64,000 nt of DNA. Origin: Escherichia coli. Its GTDB lineage: Bacteria; Pseudomonadota; Gammaproteobacteria; Enterobacterales; Enterobacteriaceae. Shown piece by piece: positions 20,723-45,375 of this stretch (positions are counted from its first letter, which is position 1; each line of letters starts with the position of its first letter). The DNA is taken from assembly GCF_003334255.1 (NCBI RefSeq), contig NZ_QOWU01000013.1; one strand, given 5' to 3'. A program made the translations under genes and the position numbers. Below the pieces are notes generated by a model, which was not told the origin of the DNA, did no database searches, and saw only the letters and a list, made by a program, of their open reading frames with translations.

Positions 20723-21405
20723 TCTGCGGCATCTCCATAAACAGAAGGCAAGTTAAGTTCTCTTGCACCCTGCGCGCTATTTATCCATGCATACATTTCA
20801 GCGTTGCTGTGAATTGCCAGTCGACGCATCGCACTGTTTTTTTGGGCGCTGATAGTTTTATTACTTTTCTTAAGCAATGAAGCTATCTGGTTGATGCCCC
20901 ATCCTTTACCTAATAGCCGCAGTACCTTGCGCTCTGAAAGAGTGAGAATGACGGAGCGATAGCTAAAATCATGAGTTTCAGTCATTGCCGGGGAGGTCAG
21001 CATGGCGCTGATACGCTCTGCGTGCGTATTGCCGGAACGTACGGTCTTGACCAGATTCTCAATGGGTTCAACATCAGACAATAACGTCGCCGTAGGGCAC
21101 ATGAGCAGTTCTACTGCCTGGGAATACCAGGAGCGTGACACCATGAAAACCCAGTGAATTTCCCGATATTGTGAGATTAAAGAATAATAATGTTCACAAA
21201 CAGAACGTGGATCTTCACTTTCACCGGCTAAATCAGCAATGACTAATCCGGAACGACGTAATTGTAATAAGGTAAGGTCCTCCGCAGAGGCGCTGGATAT
21301 TATTTCATATTCAGGGAAGTGAGTCCTCATGACCTCTTTTAACCCTGCTTGCATAACAGGTATTTTACTGATAACAATTCCATTTTTGCAGCATCCTGGC
21401 AACAT
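20680..21405 (-). CDS. yjjQ: LuxR/FixJ-type transcriptional regulator (RcsB partner)
   Basis: 241-aa ORF with C-terminal LuxR HTH; upstream of bglJ. Confidence 0.85.
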
Positions 21406-22023
21406 ATTTCCTCCACATCCACTGTCTAAAAATTATGATGGTTTATTCAGGATATTCATTCCTTAAATGTTTCCAGCAAATTAATAGATTAAGCGAATAA
21501 ATTATCCTTAGCATTCACTTTCATATCAGCATACTCCTGCTGCACAACAACTCCACTGCATGTGTCAGAAGGTTAGCATCAAATGATAACCTGGTGAAAT
21601 AGCCTGGAGACATTTAAAATATCTACATTAAGTTGTTAGGAATACTTAATGAAAAACAGAAATCACATTCATTTAATTTATAATTAAATGATATCCCTTC
21701 CCGCAGAATGCAAAATCACACAACCAATATTTATTCAATGAAATCTGATGGTTTTAGCTTGTTAACATTAAAAAACGTGCCCGGTTATCTATTATCCTGA
21801 TTCGTAAAGGCCAAACAATAAATTCATTATGATGATAATATTCATGTGATAGTTTGTTTGCGGCGAGAGATAATTCGCTTTTTATCACCGAGCTTCTCCC
21901 GATAACCAGGATTAATCAGCGCAATTTTGATCTTAACCTACCGCAAAACAACCGTGCTTCATGATACAAATGGATTCTCATTATCTGAACAATACGCAGC
22001 ACGTCTATGACAAAGGGCGAGTT
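21406..22023. promoter_or_regulatory. AT-rich divergent yjjQ-bglJ / yjjP control region (probable H-NS-silenced locus)
   Basis: About 600 bp of markedly AT-rich sequence with A/T tracts between divergent genes. Confidence 0.5.
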
Positions 22024-36991: not shown

Positions 36992-37022
36992 GGCCGCCAT
37001 GTGGCGGCCTGAATTATTTTTT
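36992..37022 (+). terminator. rho-independent terminator after yjiA
   Basis: GGCCGCCA/TGGCGGCC stem followed by ATTATTTTTT. Confidence 0.6.
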
Positions 37023-37316
37023 GTTCTGATCGCGCAGCATCGCTTCACGTAAAATTGCGTTCAGGCGAGTTTGATAGCCTTTACCAGGTCGCTTCAGCCA
37101 TTCCATCACATCAGCATCAATACGCACCGAAGCCTGGGTTTTCAATGGCCGATAAAACTTACCGCGTTCTGCGTTAGACCATTGCTCATCGCTGGAAGGT
37201 GGGATATCGCTGTAATCAATCTCTTCGTCGGATTTATTCGCCAGCGCCTTCAATTCGGCCTCATGCTGCACATCGAGTGTAGAGGAGGTCCCTCGTTTAT
37301 GTTTAACCATGCTCAT
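37014..37316 (-). CDS. BrnA-like antitoxin (CopG/RHH-type, DUF4415-like)
   Basis: About 100-aa ORF MSMVKHKRGTSSTLDVQHEAELKALANKSDEEIDYSDIPP... whose ATG overlaps the stop of the upstream DUF497 ORF. Confidence 0.6.
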   Translation of the reverse strand: MSMVKHKRGTSSTLDVQHEAELKALANKSDEEIDYSDIPPSSDEQWSNAERGKFYRPLKTQASVRIDADVMEWLKRPGKGYQTRLNAILREAMLRDQNKK

Positions 37317-37599
37317 AGCGACTCCTCTCTTTACGATCTGCTTTTCGTGCACTGATGATTCGAATAATTTCATTTCCGCTTTCGAAACGGATGGTATGCG
37401 CAACCAGAATAACCACGATACCGTGAACCACGCCGATAGTCTGCCAGCGATACTCACCGTTTTCTATGCGATCTTGCTGTGACAAATGTTGTGGATCATC
37501 AAACACCAACACCGCATCTTCAAAGCGGATGCCATGTTTCACCCGATTACTTTTGGCCTTGTTTGCATCCCATTCAAACTCCATTGGCATAGTTGCCAT
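37303..37599 (-). CDS. BrnT-like toxin (DUF497 ribonuclease fold)
   Basis: MATMPMEFEWDANKAKSNRVKHGIRFEDAVLVFDDP... pattern typical of DUF497; start choice (37599, 37590 or 37584) uncertain. Confidence 0.6.
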   Translation of the reverse strand: MATMPMEFEWDANKAKSNRVKHGIRFEDAVLVFDDPQHLSQQDRIENGEYRWQTIGVVHGIVVILVAHTIRFESGNEIIRIISARKADRKERSRYEHG

Positions 37600-37605
37600 C
37601 CCTAA

Positions 37606-37617
37606 TTGTATATACAA
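37606..37617. promoter_or_regulatory. perfect 12-bp palindrome immediately upstream of the brnT-like gene (candidate operator / -10)
   Basis: TTGTATATACAA is its own reverse complement. Confidence 0.4.
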
Positions 37618-37786: not shown

Positions 37787-38953
37787 GTGAAAAACTATAA
37801 AGTTATTACCCCGCTTTTTCCTACCTATGCACAGGTTAAAGCTATGATGAAAGCCGTCTCAGGCTATTCCCTGAAAGCGGTACGCAATATGATTACCGCC
37901 ATTCACGAGCAAACCGGTACGCCGCAAAAACCCGTTGACTGGTCGGAACCCGACCTGTGGATCAGCGAGCGCTTAACGGGTGAAGATGCCGACATCGCCC
38001 GTCGTATTTGGGATACCGATAATCACATCTTGAACCCGCGCCACAGCTACGGCTGCTACTTATTCCTCAACTATCCCCAGTTTGATCTGATGGAAAGCAC
38101 ACCAGATGATACCTGGCAGCCCACCTCGCACGGGCAAAAATTCCTGCAAGATGACGAAAAAACGCTGCGTTCACTGGACGATCAGGAAGGCATTCTGCAA
38201 CTTCTTGAACTATTAGCTGGCCGCGAAATGTCGCGCCGCGCCGATTTATTGCCGGAATGGCAGGCCTTTTTGCATCAGCATTCGAAATTCGCGTCTGCAA
38301 GTTCAGTGAAAAGCACGCTCTACTCCCGTCTCTATAACCTTATCGACCGTGACATGGTTAACCGTGAAGGCATGAGCTATCGCATCACCGATACCGGGCG
38401 CGCCTGACTTGGAAAAGCGTTACCTGCACGAAAAAGCGATCCGCGTAAAGAGCTGTTGGAAGCGGTAAAACGCTATAACGAACAGCAAAAAGAGCTGCTG
38501 CGCGAACAAATCAGCACGATGAACCCGTACAAATTTGAACAACTGGTCGGTCAATTACTGGAAGCAATGGGCTACGAGCAGGTCGAAGTGACCAAAGCCT
38601 CTGGCGATAAAGGCGTGGACGTGATTGGTCAGGTGCAGGTCGGCATCACCACCATTACAGAAGTGGTGCAGGTCAAAAGAATGCAGAACACTATCACTCG
38701 CCCGTATATCGACCAGTTGCGCGGGGCGTTGCCTTACCACAAAGCCATTCGCGGTACGCTCATCACCACCGGGAAATTTGCGGCGAAATGTGCAGAAGCG
38801 GCGCTCTTTCCGGGTGCCGCGCCCATTACGCTTATCGACGGCGATCGTTTACTGGAACTGTTAATCGAAAATAACGTCGGCATTCGCCGCAGCAATGCAG
38901 TGGAATTGCTGGATGTAGATTTGCAGTTGTTTGATGAGCTGGAGATGGATTAA
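37787..38953 (+). pseudogene. Mrr-family type IV restriction endonuclease homolog (N-terminal winged-helix plus C-terminal Mrr_cat), interrupted by one in-frame TGA
   Basis: Track ORFs 37787..38407 and 38456..38953 are in the same frame (38456-37787 = 669 = 3 x 223), separated only by TGA at 38405..38407; the C-terminal part carries GDKGVDVIG...VVQVKRMQNTITRP resembling K-12 Mrr GDGGIDGVI...VQAKRWQNTVGRP. Confidence 0.6.
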
Positions 38954-39016
38954 AGGGCGAAATCCGCCGCCTCAACCATTACAATAGCGACCCAATTTAT
39001 CTGAACAGAGTTCATC

Positions 39017-40625
<1,609 letters not shown>

Positions 40626-40636
<11 letters not shown>

Positions 40637-42017
40637 TGGCTTCAAGTTACCTCTAGGATGGAATTGTAAAAAACTGGTTGATTGTACAAAGGAGGGAAAT
40701 ATCTCTTATGGTATTGTTCAACCAGGTCAGCATCAAGAAGATGGCATTGGTATTATTCGTGTAAATAATATACAAAATGGAAATATTTACATAGACGATG
40801 TTCTGAAGGTTTCTCATGAAATAGAAAGTAAATTTGCCAAAACTAGGTTAGAAGGAGGAGAAGTACTTTTAACACTAGTGGGTTCCACTGGAATTAGCGC
40901 CATTACAACTAAAGCACTACAGGGATGGAATGTTGCTCGTGCCGTAGCCGTAATTAAGCCATGCGATGAAATAAGTGCAGAGTGGATACATATTTGCCTC
41001 CAATCACCTTTTACAAAATATTTTTTGGATTCCAGAGCTAATACTACTGTTCAGAAAACTCTCAATCTCAAAGACGTGAAAGAAATTCCATTACCAATTC
41101 CTCCACATGAGGAAAGAGTAAGTCTTGAGAAAATTTACTTCAATTTTGAGAATAGAATAAACTTAAATATAAAAATTAATAAAATCCTAGAAGAAATGTC
41201 ACAAAACCTGTTCAAATCCTGGTTTGTAGATTTTGATCCGGTGGTTGATAACGCTCTGGATGCAGGAAACCCAATTCCGGAAGCCCTGCAATCTCGCGCC
41301 GAATTGCGTCAAAAAGTACGTAATAGTGCAGATTTTAAACCGCTTCCGGCGGAAATCCGCTCGCTTTTCCCAAGTGAATTTGAAGAAACGGAGTTGGGTT
41401 GGATGCCAAAGGGATGGCAAATTAAATCATTAGATCATATTGCTAATTTCCAGAATGGTTTGGCTTTACAAAAATTTAGGCCGAAGAATATGGAGGATGA
41501 TTATTTACCTGTATTAAAAATAGCAGATCTCCGAGCAGGACAAATAACTAATGACGAACGAGCAAGAACTGATATTTCTGATAGTTGTAAGGTGTATGAC
41601 GGCGATATGATTTTCTCATGGTCGGGGACTTTGATGATCGATATTTGGACTGGTGGGAATGCTGCATTAAATCAGCATTTATATAAGGTCACATCAAAAA
41701 AATACCCACAATCTTTTTATTTTATGTGGACAATACAGCATCTTTCAAGATTTCAACATATTGCAGAGGCAAAAGCGGTAACAATGGGGCACATCAAAAA
41801 AGGAGATTTAAGTAACTCTTTCTGTCTAATTCCTACTTCATCGTTGATTACTAAATATGATAATATCGTTGGAGGATATTTAGCGAAGATTAAAAATCAA
41901 AGATTGTTAAATAACCAAATGACCGCCCTACGCGACACCCTGCTCCCGAAACTCATCTCCGGCGAGCTATCCCTGGACGATATTCCGGATCTCAACACCG
42001 ATACAGAAGCTGCATAA
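40626..42017 (+). CDS. hsdS: type I restriction-modification specificity subunit
   Basis: 463-aa ORF overlapping the hsdM stop by 11 nt; two AT-rich segments separated by a GC-normal central region. Confidence 0.85.
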
Positions 42018-42025
42018 CGCATTTT

Positions 42026-42098
42026 GCCCCTGTAAAATCAGGGGCTTTCTGGTAAGGTTTTCTACTGATACGGGAATGCTTACCAGAAATTAGCCAGG
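42026..42098 (+). promoter_or_regulatory. hsdS-hsdR intergenic hairpins (terminator-like stem plus a longer overlapping inverted repeat)
   Basis: GCCCCTG-TAAAAT-CAGGGGC followed by TTTCT; then TTCTGGTAAG...(22 nt)...CTTACCAGAA. Confidence 0.45.
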
Positions 42099-42099
42099 G

Positions 42100-45000
42100 T
42101 TGGAGCGCGATATGAGTCTCTCTTTCAGTGAAGCAAAATTAGAACAAGCGATCATTGAACTGTTACAGGATCAGGGATATCAACACCTGATCGGCGATAA
42201 TGTCCCACGTTCGACTCTCGATCAGGTCATTATCGAAGACGATCTCCGTCATTATTTAGCGGCACGCTACCAGCCTGATGGCATTACTGAAGAAGAGATT
42301 CAGCGACTGATCAAACAGTTCACCACGCTTCCGGCCTCCGATCTTTATGAAAGCAACAAAACATTTTGTCGCTGGCTGGCAAATGGTTTTCTGTTCAAAC
42401 GCGACGATCGGCAAAAAAAAGATCTCTATATTGAATTGCTCGACACCCGGCATCTACCTGCCGCACTGCGCCAGATATTTGACGCTGAAGATGTCCCGTT
42501 GCAACAGGCGGCGGAACTCCCGCCCTCCTATATTAATCCGCCGCTTAACCGGATTAAGATTGTTAACCAGCTTAAAATCTCCGGTAAAGATAATCAGACT
42601 CGTATTCCTGACGGCATTCTCTATATCAACGGTCTGCCACTGGTCGTCTTTGAATTTAAAAGCGCGGTGCGCGAGCAGGAAGCCAATATAGGCGATGCCT
42701 GGAAGCAGCTCTGCAAACGCTATCGCCGGGATATTCCGCAACTGTTTATCTACAACGCGCTCTGCATTATTAGCGATGGTGTAAATAACCGGATGGGCAA
42801 CCTGTTTGCGCCCTATGAATACTTTTACTCATGGCGCAAAGTCACCGGTAATGAAAACCGTGAACAGGACGGAATTCCATCATTGCACTCAATGATTCAG
42901 GGACTGTTTCATCCGGTACGTCTGTTGGATGTGATTAAAAACTTTATCTGCTTCCCGGATAAAGCCAAGCACGAAGTAAAAATTTGCTGCCGATATCCGC
43001 AGTACTATGCCGCCCGCAAACTCTATTACAGCATCAAGCAAGCGCGTAAACCTTTCGGTAGCGGTAAAGGCGGTACCTACTTTGGCGCAACGGGCTGCGG
43101 AAAAAGCTACACCATGCAATTTTTAACCCGCCTGTTAATGAAAAGCGTGGAGTTTGCCAGCCCGACCATTGTTTTGATCACCGACCGTACCGATCTGGAC
43201 GATCAGCTTTCTGCGCAAATGTGCAACGCCAAAAATTACATTGGCGATGACACCATCGTTCCCGTTACCAGCCGTGAAGATTTGCGTAATCAACTGGCGG
43301 GACGCAATAGTGGCGGTGTATTCCTGACAACGATCCATAAATTCACCGAAGACACCGAACTCCTTTCTGAACGCAGCAATATCATTTGCATCTCGGACGA
43401 AGCACATCGCAGTCAGGTTAACCTCGACCAGAAAGTCATCGTCGATAAAGAAAGCGGAAAAGTGCGCAAAACTTATGGCTTTGCGAAATACCTGCACGAT
43501 TCACTGCCAAACGCCACCTATGTTGGCTTTACCGGAACTCCGATTGACGCAACACTCGATGTCTTCGGTGAGGTGATCGACAGTTACACCATGACCGAAT
43601 CCGTTCAGGATGAAATCACTGTACGCATCGTGTACGAAGGCCGTGCGGCTAAAGTGATCCTGGACTCCAGCAAACTGGAAGAAGTCGAAAAGTATTACGA
43701 AGAGTGCGCAAACGCAGGCACCAATGAGTGGCAAATCGACGAAAGCAAAAAAGCCACCGCAACCATGAATGCGGTACTGGGTGATGAAGATCGGTTAAAA
43801 GCCCTCGCGGAAGATTTTGCCAAACATTATGAAAAACGCGTAGCCGAAGGTTCCACCGTAAAAGGCAAAGCCATGTTTGTTTGTGCCAGCCGTGAAATTG
43901 CCTGGGATTTCTACCGCCAGCTTAAAGTTATTCGCCCTGCCTGGTTTGAAGTGAAGCAAGCCCCCGATGGCGTCGTCCTGACGGAACAGGAGCAGAAAGA
44001 GTTACCGCCTTCTGAAATGGTGAAGATGGTCATGACGCGCGGTAAAGATGACGACGAGGCGCTTTATGATTTACTGGGCACAAAAGAATATCGCAAAGAG
44101 CTGGATAAGCAGTTCAAAAACGCTAAATCGAATTTCAAAATTGCCATTGTTGTTGATATGTGGCTGACCGGTTTTGATGTTCCTGAACTGGATACCATCT
44201 ATATTGATAAGCCCTTACAAAAACATAACCTTATCCAGACTATTTCTCGCGTTAACCGTAAACTGGAAGGCAAAAGCAAAGGGTTAGTAGTGGACTACAT
44301 CGGCATTAAGAGTCAGATGAACCAGGCACTGGCAATGTATTCCCGCATTGATGCCACCAACTTTGAAGATATTCAGCAATCGGTAATAGAAGTTAAAAAC
44401 CATCTCGATTTGTTGGGGCAAGTATTTTATGAATTCGACAGTCGGGATTATTTTAGTGGTGAGCCACAAGCGCAATTATCCTGCCTCAACCGCGCGGCGG
44501 AATTTGTTCTGCGCACTCAGAAAGTTGAACGTCGTTTTATGGGACTGGTTAAACGCATGAAAGCCGCCTACGACGTCTGCTGCGGCAGTGAAGCACTATC
44601 ACAGACAGAACGTGATCATATTCACTATTATCTTGCTGTTCGTTCAATTGTTTTCAAACTGACGAAAGGTGACGCACCGGATGTCACCCAGATGAATGCA
44701 CGCGTTCGTGAAATGATTGCAGAAGCGCTAAAAGCTGATGGCGTAGAAGAAATTTATTTTCTTGGCGATAAAAAAGCGGAATCCATCGATATTTTTGACG
44801 AAGATTATCTGGCGCGAATTAACAAGATCAAACTTCCGGCAACGAAGATCCAGTTATTACAAAAATTACTGGAAAAAGCGATCAGCGACTTCAAGAAAGT
44901 GAACCAGTTGCAAGGGATTAACTTCACCCGCCGCTTCCAGGCGATTATAGATCGTTATAATGAGCGGCGAGAAGATGATGTACTCAACGGTGAAGAATTC

Positions 45001-45375
45001 GATACATTCAGTCAGGAAATGACCGATATTATCTATGATATTAAAACCGAAATGGGCACATGGGCCGATTTAGGTATTGATATTGAAGAAAAAGCGTTTT
45101 TCGACATTCTTGCTCATATGCGCGATAAATATCAGTTCACCTATGACGATGAAAAAATGCTGTCACTGGCAAAAGAGATGAAAAGCGTGGTTGACAACAC
45201 ATCGAAATATCCTGACTGGAGTAAACGCGATGATATTAAAGCGAAACTGAAAGTTGAACTTATTCTGCTTCTACACAAGCATAAGTTCCCGCCAGTAGCA
45301 AATGATGATGTTTATATGGGTGTGCTGGCACAGGCAGAGAATTTTAAAGAACATCATATGAGTGCTTTAAATTAA
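42100..45375 (+). CDS. hsdR: type I restriction enzyme R subunit (helicase/endonuclease)
   Basis: 1091-aa ORF with helicase motifs (GCGKSYT Walker A-like; DEAH-like ICISDEAHRSQ); the likelier start is ATG 42112 (GGAG 8 nt upstream). Confidence 0.9.
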   Translation: MERDMSLSFSEAKLEQAIIELLQDQGYQHLIGDNVPRSTLDQVIIEDDLRHYLAARYQPDGITEEEIQRLIKQFTTLPASDLYESNKTFCRWLANGFLFKRDDRQKKDLYIELLDTRHLPAALRQIFDAEDVPLQQAAELPPSYINPPLNRIKIVNQLKISGKDNQTRIPDGILYINGLPLVVFEFKSAVREQEANIGDAWKQLCKRYRRDIPQLFIYNALCIISDGVNNRMGNLFAPYEYFYSWRKVTGNENREQDGIPSLHSMIQGLFHPVRLLDVIKNFICFPDKAKHEVKICCRYPQYYAARKLYYSIKQARKPFGSGKGGTYFGATGCGKSYTMQFLTRLLMKSVEFASPTIVLITDRTDLDDQLSAQMCNAKNYIGDDTIVPVTSREDLRNQLAGRNSGGVFLTTIHKFTEDTELLSERSNIICISDEAHRSQVNLDQKVIVDKESGKVRKTYGFAKYLHDSLPNATYVGFTGTPIDATLDVFGEVIDSYTMTESVQDEITVRIVYEGRAAKVILDSSKLEEVEKYYEECANAGTNEWQIDESKKATATMNAVLGDEDRLKALAEDFAKHYEKRVAEGSTVKGKAMFVCASREIAWDFYRQLKVIRPAWFEVKQAPDGVVLTEQEQKELPPSEMVKMVMTRGKDDDEALYDLLGTKEYRKELDKQFKNAKSNFKIAIVVDMWLTGFDVPELDTIYIDKPLQKHNLIQTISRVNRKLEGKSKGLVVDYIGIKSQMNQALAMYSRIDATNFEDIQQSVIEVKNHLDLLGQVFYEFDSRDYFSGEPQAQLSCLNRAAEFVLRTQKVERRFMGLVKRMKAAYDVCCGSEALSQTERDHIHYYLAVRSIVFKLTKGDAPDVTQMNARVREMIAEALKADGVEEIYFLGDKKAESIDIFDEDYLARINKIKLPATKIQLLQKLLEKAISDFKKVNQLQGINFTRRFQAIIDRYNERREDDVLNGEEFDTFSQEMTDIIYDIKTEMGTWADLGIDIEEKAFFDILAHMRDKYQFTYDDEKMLSLAKEMKSVVDNTSKYPDWSKRDDIKAKLKVELILLLHKHKFPPVANDDVYMGVLAQAENFKEHHMSALN

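What the first reader, a model, noticed from the sequence alone, without database searches (positions are those of the whole stretch)
40626..42017. Mosaic composition of hsdS: two AT-rich target-recognition domains around a GC-normal core
Roughly 40690-41200 and 41430-41900 are conspicuously AT-rich (runs such as AAATAATATACAAAATGGAAATATTTACATAGACG), while the central segment (about 41220-41420) and the ends have host-like GC content. This is the signature of target-recognition domains exchanged horizontally between conserved spacer regions, so the specificity is likely recently acquired.
Basis: seen in the sequence. Interest (0 to 1): 0.5.

Follow-up and report, generated by a model that had tools for sequence, protein, structure and literature searches.

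The report
Ordinary AT-rich recognition domains in hsdS
The restriction-enzyme specificity gene hsdS really does have two AT-rich recognition modules around GC-normal conserved parts, but every relative examined shows the same pattern, so it is a normal, old feature of these genes and not a sign of recent acquisition.

Summary
The window is the E. coli type strain ATCC 11775 chromosome, and the finding lies in its immigration control region: yjiA, brnTA, an mrr pseudogene, hsdM, hsdS, hsdR, symE.

The composition claim holds.
- The two variable blocks (40640-41189 and 41422-41926) are 34% GC.
- The central conserved block is 47% GC, the 3' end 55%, and hsdM 52%.
- The 5' end of hsdS is not GC-normal.

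The modular-exchange idea is also right.
- Strain 82.0311 is identical through TRD1 (target-recognition domain 1) and then switches to an unrelated TRD2.
- Strain 13E0767 carries an identical TRD2 with an unrelated TRD1.
- Both crossovers fall inside the conserved blocks.

The inference "AT-rich, therefore recently acquired" fails.
- The same mosaic occurs in EcoKI hsdS of K-12.
- It occurs in every other allele of this (type ID) family that I examined.
- It occurs in 67 of 70 family members from other species.
- Orthologous TRD1 and TRD2 in Enterobacter, Salmonella and Klebsiella are 84-87% identical in protein. Their synonymous divergence is at least that of hsdM, yet they are still 32-36% GC.

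Low GC is therefore a long-standing steady state of these cassettes. The gene is an ordinary, already annotated hsdS. Its half-sites could not be predicted with the tools available.

The parts
37787..38953 (+). mrr-family type IV restriction gene, pseudogene (internal stop). It is the first gene of the mrr-hsdM-hsdS-hsdR cassette.
   Evidence: RefSeq annotates it as 'restriction endonuclease, internal stop'. It appears as two ORFs, 37787-38407 and 38456-38953. Intact 388-393 aa versions exist in ST131, 82.0311, Salmonella, Klebsiella and Enterobacter.
39017..40636 (+). hsdM, the methyltransferase subunit (539 aa), GC 51.5%
   Evidence: Matches TIGR00497 hsdM. Best solved relative is 3khk; relatives in EcoR124I and EcoKI are only distant. 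It is 99.3% identical to ST131 HsdM and 24.5% to EcoKI HsdM.
40626..42017 (+). hsdS, the specificity subunit (463 aa), GC 37.7%
   Evidence: Two Methylase_S domains, at aa 41-189 and 261-397. It is 100% identical to WP_000535334.1.
40640..41189 (+). Variable block 1: globular TRD1 (aa 13-158) plus the first half of long helix 1. GC 34.4%, GC3 0.23.
   Evidence: Unrelated in ST131 and 13E0767 alleles, identical in 82.0311. Structure model. GC values.
41190..41421 (+). Central conserved region: second half of helix 1 plus a linker. It contains the family motif WFVDFDP and is a crossover site. GC 46.6%.
   Evidence: Found at 90-94% nucleotide identity in 868 E. coli genomes. Invariant columns run from N185 to W264. 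Crossovers fall at about 41325-41400 against 82.0311 and about 41349-41403 against 13E0767.
41422..41926 (+). Variable block 2: globular TRD2 (aa 252-402) plus the first half of long helix 2. GC 34.1%, GC3 0.28.
   Evidence: Identical over 41404-41974 in 13E0767; unrelated in 82.0311 and ST131. Structure model.
41927..42017 (+). C-terminal conserved region, with motif LRDTLLPKLISGEL (end of helix 2). GC 54.9%. It is the second crossover site.
   Evidence: Invariant columns run from L435 to L450. Identity to other alleles resumes here.
42026..42045 (+). Terminator-like GC-rich hairpin between hsdS and hsdR
   Evidence: Consensus scan only: 7-bp stem with 6 G-C pairs. Function not shown.
42112..45375 (+). 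hsdR, the restriction/translocase subunit (1087 aa), GC 45.5%
   Evidence: Matches TIGR00348 at 465 bits. Annotated start. It is 99.3% identical to ST131 HsdR, 91-92% to the Salmonella, Klebsiella and Enterobacter homologues, and 19% to EcoKI HsdR.

Best explanation
This is an ordinary, apparently intact type I restriction-modification specificity gene of the StySBLI/EcoMII (type ID) family, in the chromosomal immigration control region of E. coli ATCC 11775.

How it works: HsdS has two globular target-recognition domains. Each reads one half of a bipartite DNA target. Two long helices hold them apart, set the spacer length and dock two HsdM subunits. M2S methylates the target and R2M2S restricts unmodified DNA.

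Gene structure: the gene consists of two allele-specific blocks (a TRD plus the first half of the following helix), separated and followed by family-wide conserved blocks. Homologous recombination in the conserved blocks moves TRD cassettes between alleles, and this creates new specificities.

Composition: the AT-richness of the variable blocks is a long-standing compositional steady state of TRD cassettes. It is mostly at synonymous sites and is shared by all alleles, by other type I families and by orthologues in other genera. It is not a fading mark of a recent import.

Shown here: the gene identities, the block boundaries, the independent assortment of the TRDs, the crossover positions, the generality of the mosaic, and the age of both TRD lineages.

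Inferred: that the enzyme is active, and the cause of the AT bias. I think the most likely cause is AT-biased mutation that is only weakly opposed where codon selection is weak and allelic recombination is absent.
For: Identity and context.

Block structure and crossovers:
- 82.0311 is identical over 40552-41324, then TRD2 is unrelated until about 41930.
- 13E0767 is identical over 41404-41974 with an unrelated TRD1.
- TRD1 and TRD2 assort independently in E. coli genomes and in the protein database.

Generality of the mosaic:
- EcoKI hsdS has TRDs at 31-38% GC, centre 44-45%, 3' end 55-56%, with hsdM at 54.8%.
- Six other type ID alleles have TRDs at 32.5-37.9% GC.
- In 70 species loci the TRDs are below the conserved blocks in 67 (Wilcoxon p = 7e-13). 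TRD GC tracks host GC with slope 0.96 and r = 0.87.

Age of the TRD lineages:
- Orthologous TRD1 and TRD2 in Enterobacter, Salmonella and Klebsiella are 84-87% identical in protein.
- Their dS is 0.8-1.9, against 0.75-0.84 for hsdM.
- Their GC is 32-36% and their GC3 0.24-0.26, in loci of 51-55% GC.

Synonymous origin of the bias: amino-acid content with host codon usage predicts 46% GC and GC3 of 0.55-0.57. The observed values are 34% and 0.23-0.28.

Structure: the model has two globular domains and two long helices, H161-202 and H405-444.
Against: - Activity and target sequence were not measured.
- dS values come from Nei-Gojobori counts on short, compositionally skewed segments near saturation, so they are rough.
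- The 70 loci are the hits most similar to the query, not a random sample. Their domain limits were set from two motif anchors.
- The cause of the AT bias is not established.
- Enteric TRDs are 13-17 points below their flanks, much more than the family average of 6-7 points. This extra deficit is unexplained.
- Tracts 100% identical to other strains, ending in the conserved blocks, show that some cassette exchange within E. coli is recent. A recent origin of this particular TRD pair is therefore not excluded.
Confidence: 0.85

Rival explanations
1. One reading: the two TRDs were imported recently from an AT-rich donor. Their low GC is un-ameliorated foreign composition, so the specificity is new to this lineage.
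For: - The TRDs are 34% GC in a 50% GC genome, in the lowest ~2% of windows.
- TRD cassettes do move. Tracts identical to other strains end in the conserved blocks.
- Only 31-44 of 5426 E. coli genomes carry these TRDs.
Against: - All named close relatives of either TRD are Enterobacteriaceae (83-87%), followed by Vibrio, Proteus, Plesiomonas, Aeromonas and other Gammaproteobacteria (about 68-75%). No low-GC donor appears.
- Orthologues in three genera have dS at or above that of hsdM but the same low GC3. The composition is therefore at equilibrium, not a legacy.
- Every other allele, and EcoKI, shows the same mosaic.
- The allele sits in a 40-kb haplotype that is 99.96-99.98% identical in unrelated isolates.
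- No relative above 60% identity exists in the plasmid or phage collections.
Confidence: 0.05
2. The AT-richness is forced by protein function. DNA-reading domains and coiled-coil helices need residues with AT-rich codons (Lys, Asn, Ile, Phe, Tyr), so composition simply follows amino-acid content.
For: - GC1 and GC2 are lower in the TRDs (0.47/0.32 and 0.40/0.35) than in hsdM (0.55/0.39).
- Expected GC from amino-acid content is 46% for the TRDs against 50% for hsdM.
- The most AT-rich pieces are the helix halves, at 23-30% GC.
Against: Amino-acid content accounts for only about 4-5 of the ~17 points of deficit. GC3 is 0.23-0.28 against the expected 0.55-0.57, so most of the bias is synonymous.
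Confidence: 0.07
3. This is a phase-variable or shuffling hsdS system, in which TRDs are swapped within the cell by inversion between several hsdS copies or by repeat-tract slippage.
For: The modular TRD architecture is the same one such systems exploit.
Against: - There is no second hsdS copy or fragment anywhere in the 64-kb window, by blastn or tblastn.
- There is no repeat tract in hsdM, hsdS or hsdR beyond a 21-nt, 1.9-copy match.
- No recombinase gene is annotated in the locus.
Confidence: 0.01

Closest known systems
EcoMII of E. coli ST131 EC958 (type I R-M, recognises AAC(N4)CTTT; PMC4659465)
   Same: - Same mrr-hsdM-hsdS-hsdR cassette between yjiA/brnTA and symE.
- HsdM and HsdR are each 99.3% identical to those of an ST131 O25b:H4 strain.
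- The conserved hsdS blocks are 94% identical in nucleotides.
- Same GC mosaic.
   Different: Both TRDs are unrelated (29-58% nucleotide match), so the target sequence must differ. The mrr gene is intact in ST131 and a pseudogene here.
StySBLI, EcoR9I and KpnAI: the type ID family (Titheradge et al. 2001; targets CGA(N6)TACC, AGCA(N6)TGA, GGCA(N6)TTC as listed in PMC12707154)
   Same: - Chromosomal allele at the immigration control region.
- The EC958 R subunit is reported as 92% identical to the StySBLI R subunit (PMC4659465).
- The homologous Salmonella and Klebsiella cassettes fetched here are 91-95% identical in HsdM and HsdR.
   Different: No StySBLI, EcoR9I or KpnAI sequence was available here, so the link is indirect. 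Complementation, antibody cross-reaction and the 6-bp adenine interval are untested.
EcoKI hsdS of E. coli K-12 (type IA)
   Same: - Same two-TRD, two-conserved-region design.
- Same compositional mosaic: TRDs 31-38% GC, centre 44-45%, 3' end 55-56%.
- Same chromosomal region.
   Different: - Different family: HsdM is 24.5% and HsdR 19% identical.
- The gene order is hsdR-hsdM-hsdS in K-12 and hsdM-hsdS-hsdR here.
- Only weak TRD similarity, 18 bits.
Natural and laboratory TRD exchange in type I enzymes (StySB x StySP giving StySQ; StySKI/EcoAI hybrids; reviewed in PMC3874165)
   Same: Crossing-over in the conserved region between TRDs yields hybrid specificities. The same crossover location is seen here against strains 82.0311 and 13E0767.
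   Different: Here the exchange is inferred from natural alleles of the ID family. Hybrid specificity was not measured.

Membership tests
Type I R-M specificity subunit (HsdS) | Two target-recognition domains of the Methylase_S (PF01420) type | tested here: met
   PF01420 hits at aa 41-189 (E = 1.7e-7) and aa 261-397 (E = 3e-6). Solved HsdS chains 1yf2, 2y7c and 7vru also match.
Type I R-M specificity subunit (HsdS) | Two conserved regions forming long helices that separate the TRDs | tested here: met
   Invariant columns run N185-W264 and L435-L450 across 25 homologues. The AlphaFold model has helices 161-202 and 405-444, with mean pLDDT 78.
Type I R-M specificity subunit (HsdS) | Encoded next to hsdM and hsdR | tested here: met
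   hsdM matches TIGR00497 and hsdR matches TIGR00348; both are adjacent on the same strand.
Type I R-M specificity subunit (HsdS) | Directs methylation and restriction of a bipartite target | not testable with these tools
   No methylome or REBASE data were available. Literature searches found nothing for this allele.
Type ID family (StySBLI prototype) | HsdM and HsdR about 90% or more identical to family members, and only ~20-30% to other families | tested here: met
   99.3%/99.3% to the ST131 EcoMII-type system; 91-95% to the Salmonella, Klebsiella and Enterobacter cassettes; 24.5%/19% to EcoKI. The link to StySBLI itself rests on the 92% R-subunit identity reported in PMC4659465, so it is indirect.
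Type ID family (StySBLI prototype) | Subunit complementation and antibody cross-reaction within the family | not testable with these tools
   These are experimental criteria (described in PMC2481252).
Type ID family (StySBLI prototype) | Six base pairs between the two methylated adenines | not testable with these tools
   The target sequence is unknown. The family values are taken from the table in PMC12707154.
Recently acquired foreign DNA (compositional island) | Composition deviates from that of the host | tested here: met
   34% GC against 50%; lowest ~2% of windows.
Recently acquired foreign DNA (compositional island) | The deviation is specific to this allele or lineage, not shared by long-resident homologues | tested here: not met
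   The same mosaic is found in EcoKI, six other type ID alleles and 67 of 70 species loci.
Recently acquired foreign DNA (compositional island) | Little synonymous divergence from the source, or no co-diverged orthologues in sister genera | tested here: not met
   Orthologous TRDs in Enterobacter, Salmonella and Klebsiella have dS 0.8-1.9, at or above hsdM, and the same GC3.
Phase-variable / inverting hsdS systems | Extra hsdS copies or fragments with inverted repeats, a recombinase, or simple-sequence repeats | tested here: not met
   No second copy in the 64 kb, no repeat tract and no recombinase annotated.

The most novel reading that the evidence does not exclude
A single gene keeps two different compositional equilibria for tens of millions of years or more: GC3 of about 0.25 in the allele-specific blocks and about 0.4-0.6 in the shared blocks.

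The proposed reason is that only the shared blocks can pair with other alleles. They would therefore experience homologous recombination and GC-biased gene conversion, or more effective selection. The TRD blocks have no homologous partner in most encounters and would drift to the AT-biased mutational equilibrium.

If so, hsdS alleles would be a clean natural experiment on how recombination shapes bacterial GC content. The unusually large deficit in enteric bacteria (13-17 points, against a family mean of 6-7) would need its own explanation.
Probability: 0.25. Interest if true: 0.45.

Novelty: already known. Interest (0 to 1): 0.15.

Why it matters
It matters mainly as a caution. Low GC inside hsdS is not a clock for horizontal transfer, because the variable domains of type I specificity genes are AT-rich everywhere, including in textbook EcoKI.

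The useful positive results are these:
- The type strain's system belongs to the type ID (StySBLI/EcoMII) family.
- The block boundaries are mapped precisely.
- Natural partner strains share exactly one TRD: 82.0311 shares TRD1 and 13E0767 shares TRD2. Three methylomes would therefore read off both half-sites.

Tried and rejected
- **Single-protein scan of genome contigs:** it found no relatives. Repeating it with an alignment worked.
- **Titheradge et al. 2001 (the type ID paper):** not held in the library, so the family description comes from reviews and the ST131 paper.
- **Half-site prediction:** no REBASE access. Solved HsdS structures match the TRDs only weakly (18-29 bits). Four literature searches or look-ups found no methylome for ATCC 11775 or for any strain with this allele.
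- **Published statement on hsdS G+C content:** a search turned up nothing relevant.
- **Corrected error:** I first read the truncated hit lists as showing that strain S88 has TRD1 without TRD2. One search showed that S88 has the identical full allele. G5 also has the full allele, with IS1 in hsdM. Strain 82.0311 is the genuine TRD1-only case.
- **Horizontal spread of the allele:** comparison with E110019, HL15 and Res13 was uninformative, because 40 kb around the locus is 99.96-99.98% identical in all of them.
- **Plasmid and phage collections:** no relative above 60% identity.
- **Phase-variable reading:** rejected.
- **Promoter scan:** fewer promoter-like sites in 38800-42300 than in shuffled sequence.

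Full report
**What the window is**

The hsdS ORF (40626-42017) is 100% identical to a gene of E. coli DSM 30083 = ATCC 11775, the species type strain. RefSeq annotation of that record gives the local order:
- btsT, yjiX, yjiA
- brnA/brnT
- a 'restriction endonuclease' pseudogene with an internal stop (an mrr-family gene)
- hsdM, hsdS, hsdR
- symE, yjiS, yjiR

This is the enterobacterial immigration control region described in PMC3874165 and PMC12707154. NCBIfam and Pfam confirm the three hsd genes. hsdS overlaps hsdM by 11 nt. A terminator-like hairpin follows it at 42026-42045 (consensus match only).

**Checking the observation**

| Segment | GC |
|---|---|
| 40690-41200 | 34.4% |
| 41220-41420 | 48.3% |
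| 41430-41900 | 34.4% |
| 41901-42017 | 50.4% |
| hsdM | 51.5% |
| whole window | 50.3% |

- Only about 2% of equally long windows elsewhere in the 64 kb are as AT-rich. The contrast is significant: Fisher p = 2.7e-5 for TRDs against conserved blocks, and p = 1e-17 against hsdM.
- The observation therefore stands, with three corrections.
  - The 5' end of the gene is not GC-normal. Only 14 nt are shared with other alleles, and the first 64 nt are 36% GC.
  - The core is intermediate, with GC3 of 0.39 against 0.60 in hsdM.
  - The GC step lies at about 41232, some 40 nt inside the conserved block.

**Where the blocks are**

Comparison with other alleles fixes the block limits independently of composition:

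| Block | Coordinates | GC |
|---|---|---|
| variable 1 | 40640-41189 | 34.4% |
| conserved (central) | 41190-41421 | 46.6% |
| variable 2 | 41422-41926 | 34.1% |
| conserved (3' end) | 41927-42017 | 54.9% |

An AlphaFold model (mean pLDDT 78) shows globular domains at aa 13-158 and 252-402, and long helices at aa 161-202 and 405-444. Each variable block is therefore a TRD plus the first half of the helix that follows it. The compositional boundaries follow the homology blocks, not the structural domain limits.

**Which family**

- HsdM and HsdR are only 24.5% and 19% identical to the EcoKI subunits. They are 99.3% identical to those of an ST131 O25b:H4 strain, and 91-95% identical to syntenic mrr-hsdMSR cassettes in Salmonella, Klebsiella and Enterobacter.
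- The ST131 system is EcoMII. It has the gene order hsdM-hsdS-hsdR next to mrr, and its R subunit is reported as 92% identical to that of StySBLI, the type ID prototype (PMC4659465).
- I therefore assign the system to type ID by sequence. The link to StySBLI itself is indirect. The experimental family criteria are untested.

**Is the gene a mosaic of exchangeable parts? Yes.**

- In 5426 complete E. coli genomes, the conserved blocks are found in 868 at 90-94% identity. The whole allele is in 31, TRD1 in 36 and TRD2 in 44.
- Domain-by-domain comparison of 120 database homologues shows independent assortment:
  - TRD2 at >90% identity is joined to at least six clearly different TRD1s in Escherichia.
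  - TRD1 at 100% identity is joined to other TRD2s.
  - In other genera, TRD1 and TRD2 orthologues have 17 and 23 different partner clusters respectively.
- Two natural recombinants map the joints:
  - Strain 82.0311 is identical to the window over 40552-41324. It has a few differences up to 41374, an unrelated TRD2, and matches again from about 41930.
  - Strain 13E0767 has an unrelated TRD1, scattered differences through the central block, and then complete identity over 41404-41974.
- In 13E0767 and an O111:H8 strain the cassette is not in the immigration control region. It sits in an island next to lutC/ykgG.

**Does AT-richness mean recent acquisition? No.** Four lines of evidence argue against it.

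1. *The textbook EcoKI hsdS has the same profile.* Its TRDs are 31-38% GC, the centre 44-45% and the 3' end 55-56%, beside an hsdM of 54.8%.
2. *Other type ID alleles show the same values.* All six that I examined, from E. coli, Enterobacter, Salmonella and Klebsiella, have TRDs at 32.5-37.9% GC and conserved blocks at 43-54%.
3. *The pattern holds across the family.*
   - An alignment-based scan of one genome per species returned 80 loci of this HsdS family, from many phyla and one archaeon.
   - In the 70 loci that could be parsed, TRDs are below the conserved blocks in 67 (Wilcoxon p = 7e-13).
   - They are 3-8 points below their flanks in every host-GC class, and TRD GC tracks host GC with slope 0.96 and r = 0.87.
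4. *The same TRD lineages are old.*
   - TRD1 and TRD2 exist in Enterobacter (both together, P0003/L082), Salmonella (TRD1, L083) and Klebsiella (TRD2, L084) at 84-87% protein identity.
   - Their synonymous divergence is 0.8-1.9. That is equal to or greater than hsdM in the same cassettes (0.75-0.84).
   - Their GC is still 32-36% and their GC3 0.24-0.26.
   - Sites that have turned over this much report the local substitution equilibrium. They do not report the composition of a donor.

About 12 of the ~17 points of deficit are synonymous. Amino-acid content with host codon usage predicts 46% GC and GC3 of 0.55-0.57, against the observed 34% and 0.23-0.28.

**What remains possible about recency**

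- Cassette exchange within E. coli is ongoing. The tracts shared with 82.0311 and 13E0767 are 100% identical, while neighbouring hsd sequence differs by 1-7%. The present TRD pair could therefore have been assembled within the species.
- Against this, the same pair occurs in Enterobacter with uniform divergence across all blocks.
- The allele also lies in a 40-kb haplotype that is 99.96-99.98% identical in isolates from humans, pigs and ducks.
- Composition says nothing either way.
- No relative above 60% identity was found on plasmids or phages.

**Why the TRDs are AT-rich is not settled**

- Protein requirements explain a minority of the effect.
- My preferred inference is AT-biased mutation that is poorly countered in blocks where codon selection is weak and where there is no allelic partner for recombination. 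I did not test this.
- The especially large deficit in enteric bacteria is unexplained.

**Other readings**

There is no second hsdS copy, no repeat tract and no recombinase in the window, so this is not a phase-variable system.

**Limits**

- The target sequence could not be predicted. There was no REBASE access, only weak similarity to solved HsdS structures, and no published methylome for this allele.
- dS estimates on short, skewed, near-saturated segments are rough.
- The 70-species sample is similarity-ranked, and its domain limits are anchored on two motifs.

**Verdict**

The finding is a correct observation of a general and already known architecture in an annotated gene. The 'recently acquired' inference does not.

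Noticed in passing
window 37787-38953 (+): The mrr-family type IV restriction gene that heads the cassette is a pseudogene with an internal stop, appearing as two ORFs (37787-38407 and 38456-38953). The same stop is annotated in S88, E110019, HL15, Res13 and G5. The gene is intact (388-393 aa) in ST131, 82.0311, Salmonella, Klebsiella and Enterobacter.
   Followed up: partly
L086 (NZ_CP020107.1 4104105-4110364) and L090 (NZ_CP077499.1): In strains 13E0767 and O111:H8 7-58 72A, a type ID hsdM-hsdS-hsdR cassette lies outside the immigration control region. It sits in an island with YagK/YfjJ-domain and zinc-ribbon genes, next to lutC/ykgG. Its HsdM and HsdR are 98.7% and 97.7% identical to the window's, and its TRD2 is 100% identical. 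The family therefore has a second, possibly mobile, chromosomal home.
   Followed up: partly
window 54000-57000: This is the most AT-rich stretch of the window (37-38% GC, down to 27% in 200-nt windows). By coordinate transfer from E110019 it covers a pentapeptide-repeat protein gene and an SdiA-regulated-domain gene. It contains an internal repeat: 56352-56489 matches 56400-56537 at 88% identity, offset 48 nt.
   Followed up: no
window 21000-22000: A second AT-rich patch (38% GC). By coordinate transfer it falls on yjjQ and the yjjQ-yjjP intergenic region.
   Followed up: no
window 44000-44950, inside hsdR: The C-terminal third of hsdR dips to 36-43% GC. hsdR overall is 45.5% GC here, against 52-54% in the Enterobacter, Salmonella and Klebsiella homologues. 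Its dS against those genera (~1.95) is more than twice that of hsdM (~0.8).
   Followed up: no
window 42026-42045: A GC-rich hairpin followed by TTTCT lies between hsdS and hsdR. It suggests that hsdMS and hsdR are separate transcription units, as in other type I systems. It is a consensus match only.
   Followed up: no
window 37014-37617 (-): A BrnT/BrnA toxin-antitoxin pair sits between yjiA and the mrr pseudogene. K-12 has mrr directly next to yjiA at this position. In strain 82.0311 brnT is truncated.
   Followed up: no
L088 (strain G5) and NZ_CP195940.1 (strain C10): The same hsdS allele is found next to an hsdM disrupted by IS1A in strain G5. In strain C10, TRD1 and TRD2 lie about 2.4 kb apart, which suggests an insertion in hsdS. 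These would be independent inactivations of the system.
   Followed up: partly
L081 (Methanosarcinaceae MAG): The HsdS family defined by the motifs WFVDFDP and LLPKLISG reaches archaea. The best solved relative of the HsdM is PDB entry 3khk (454 bits), far above EcoR124I or EcoKI.
   Followed up: no
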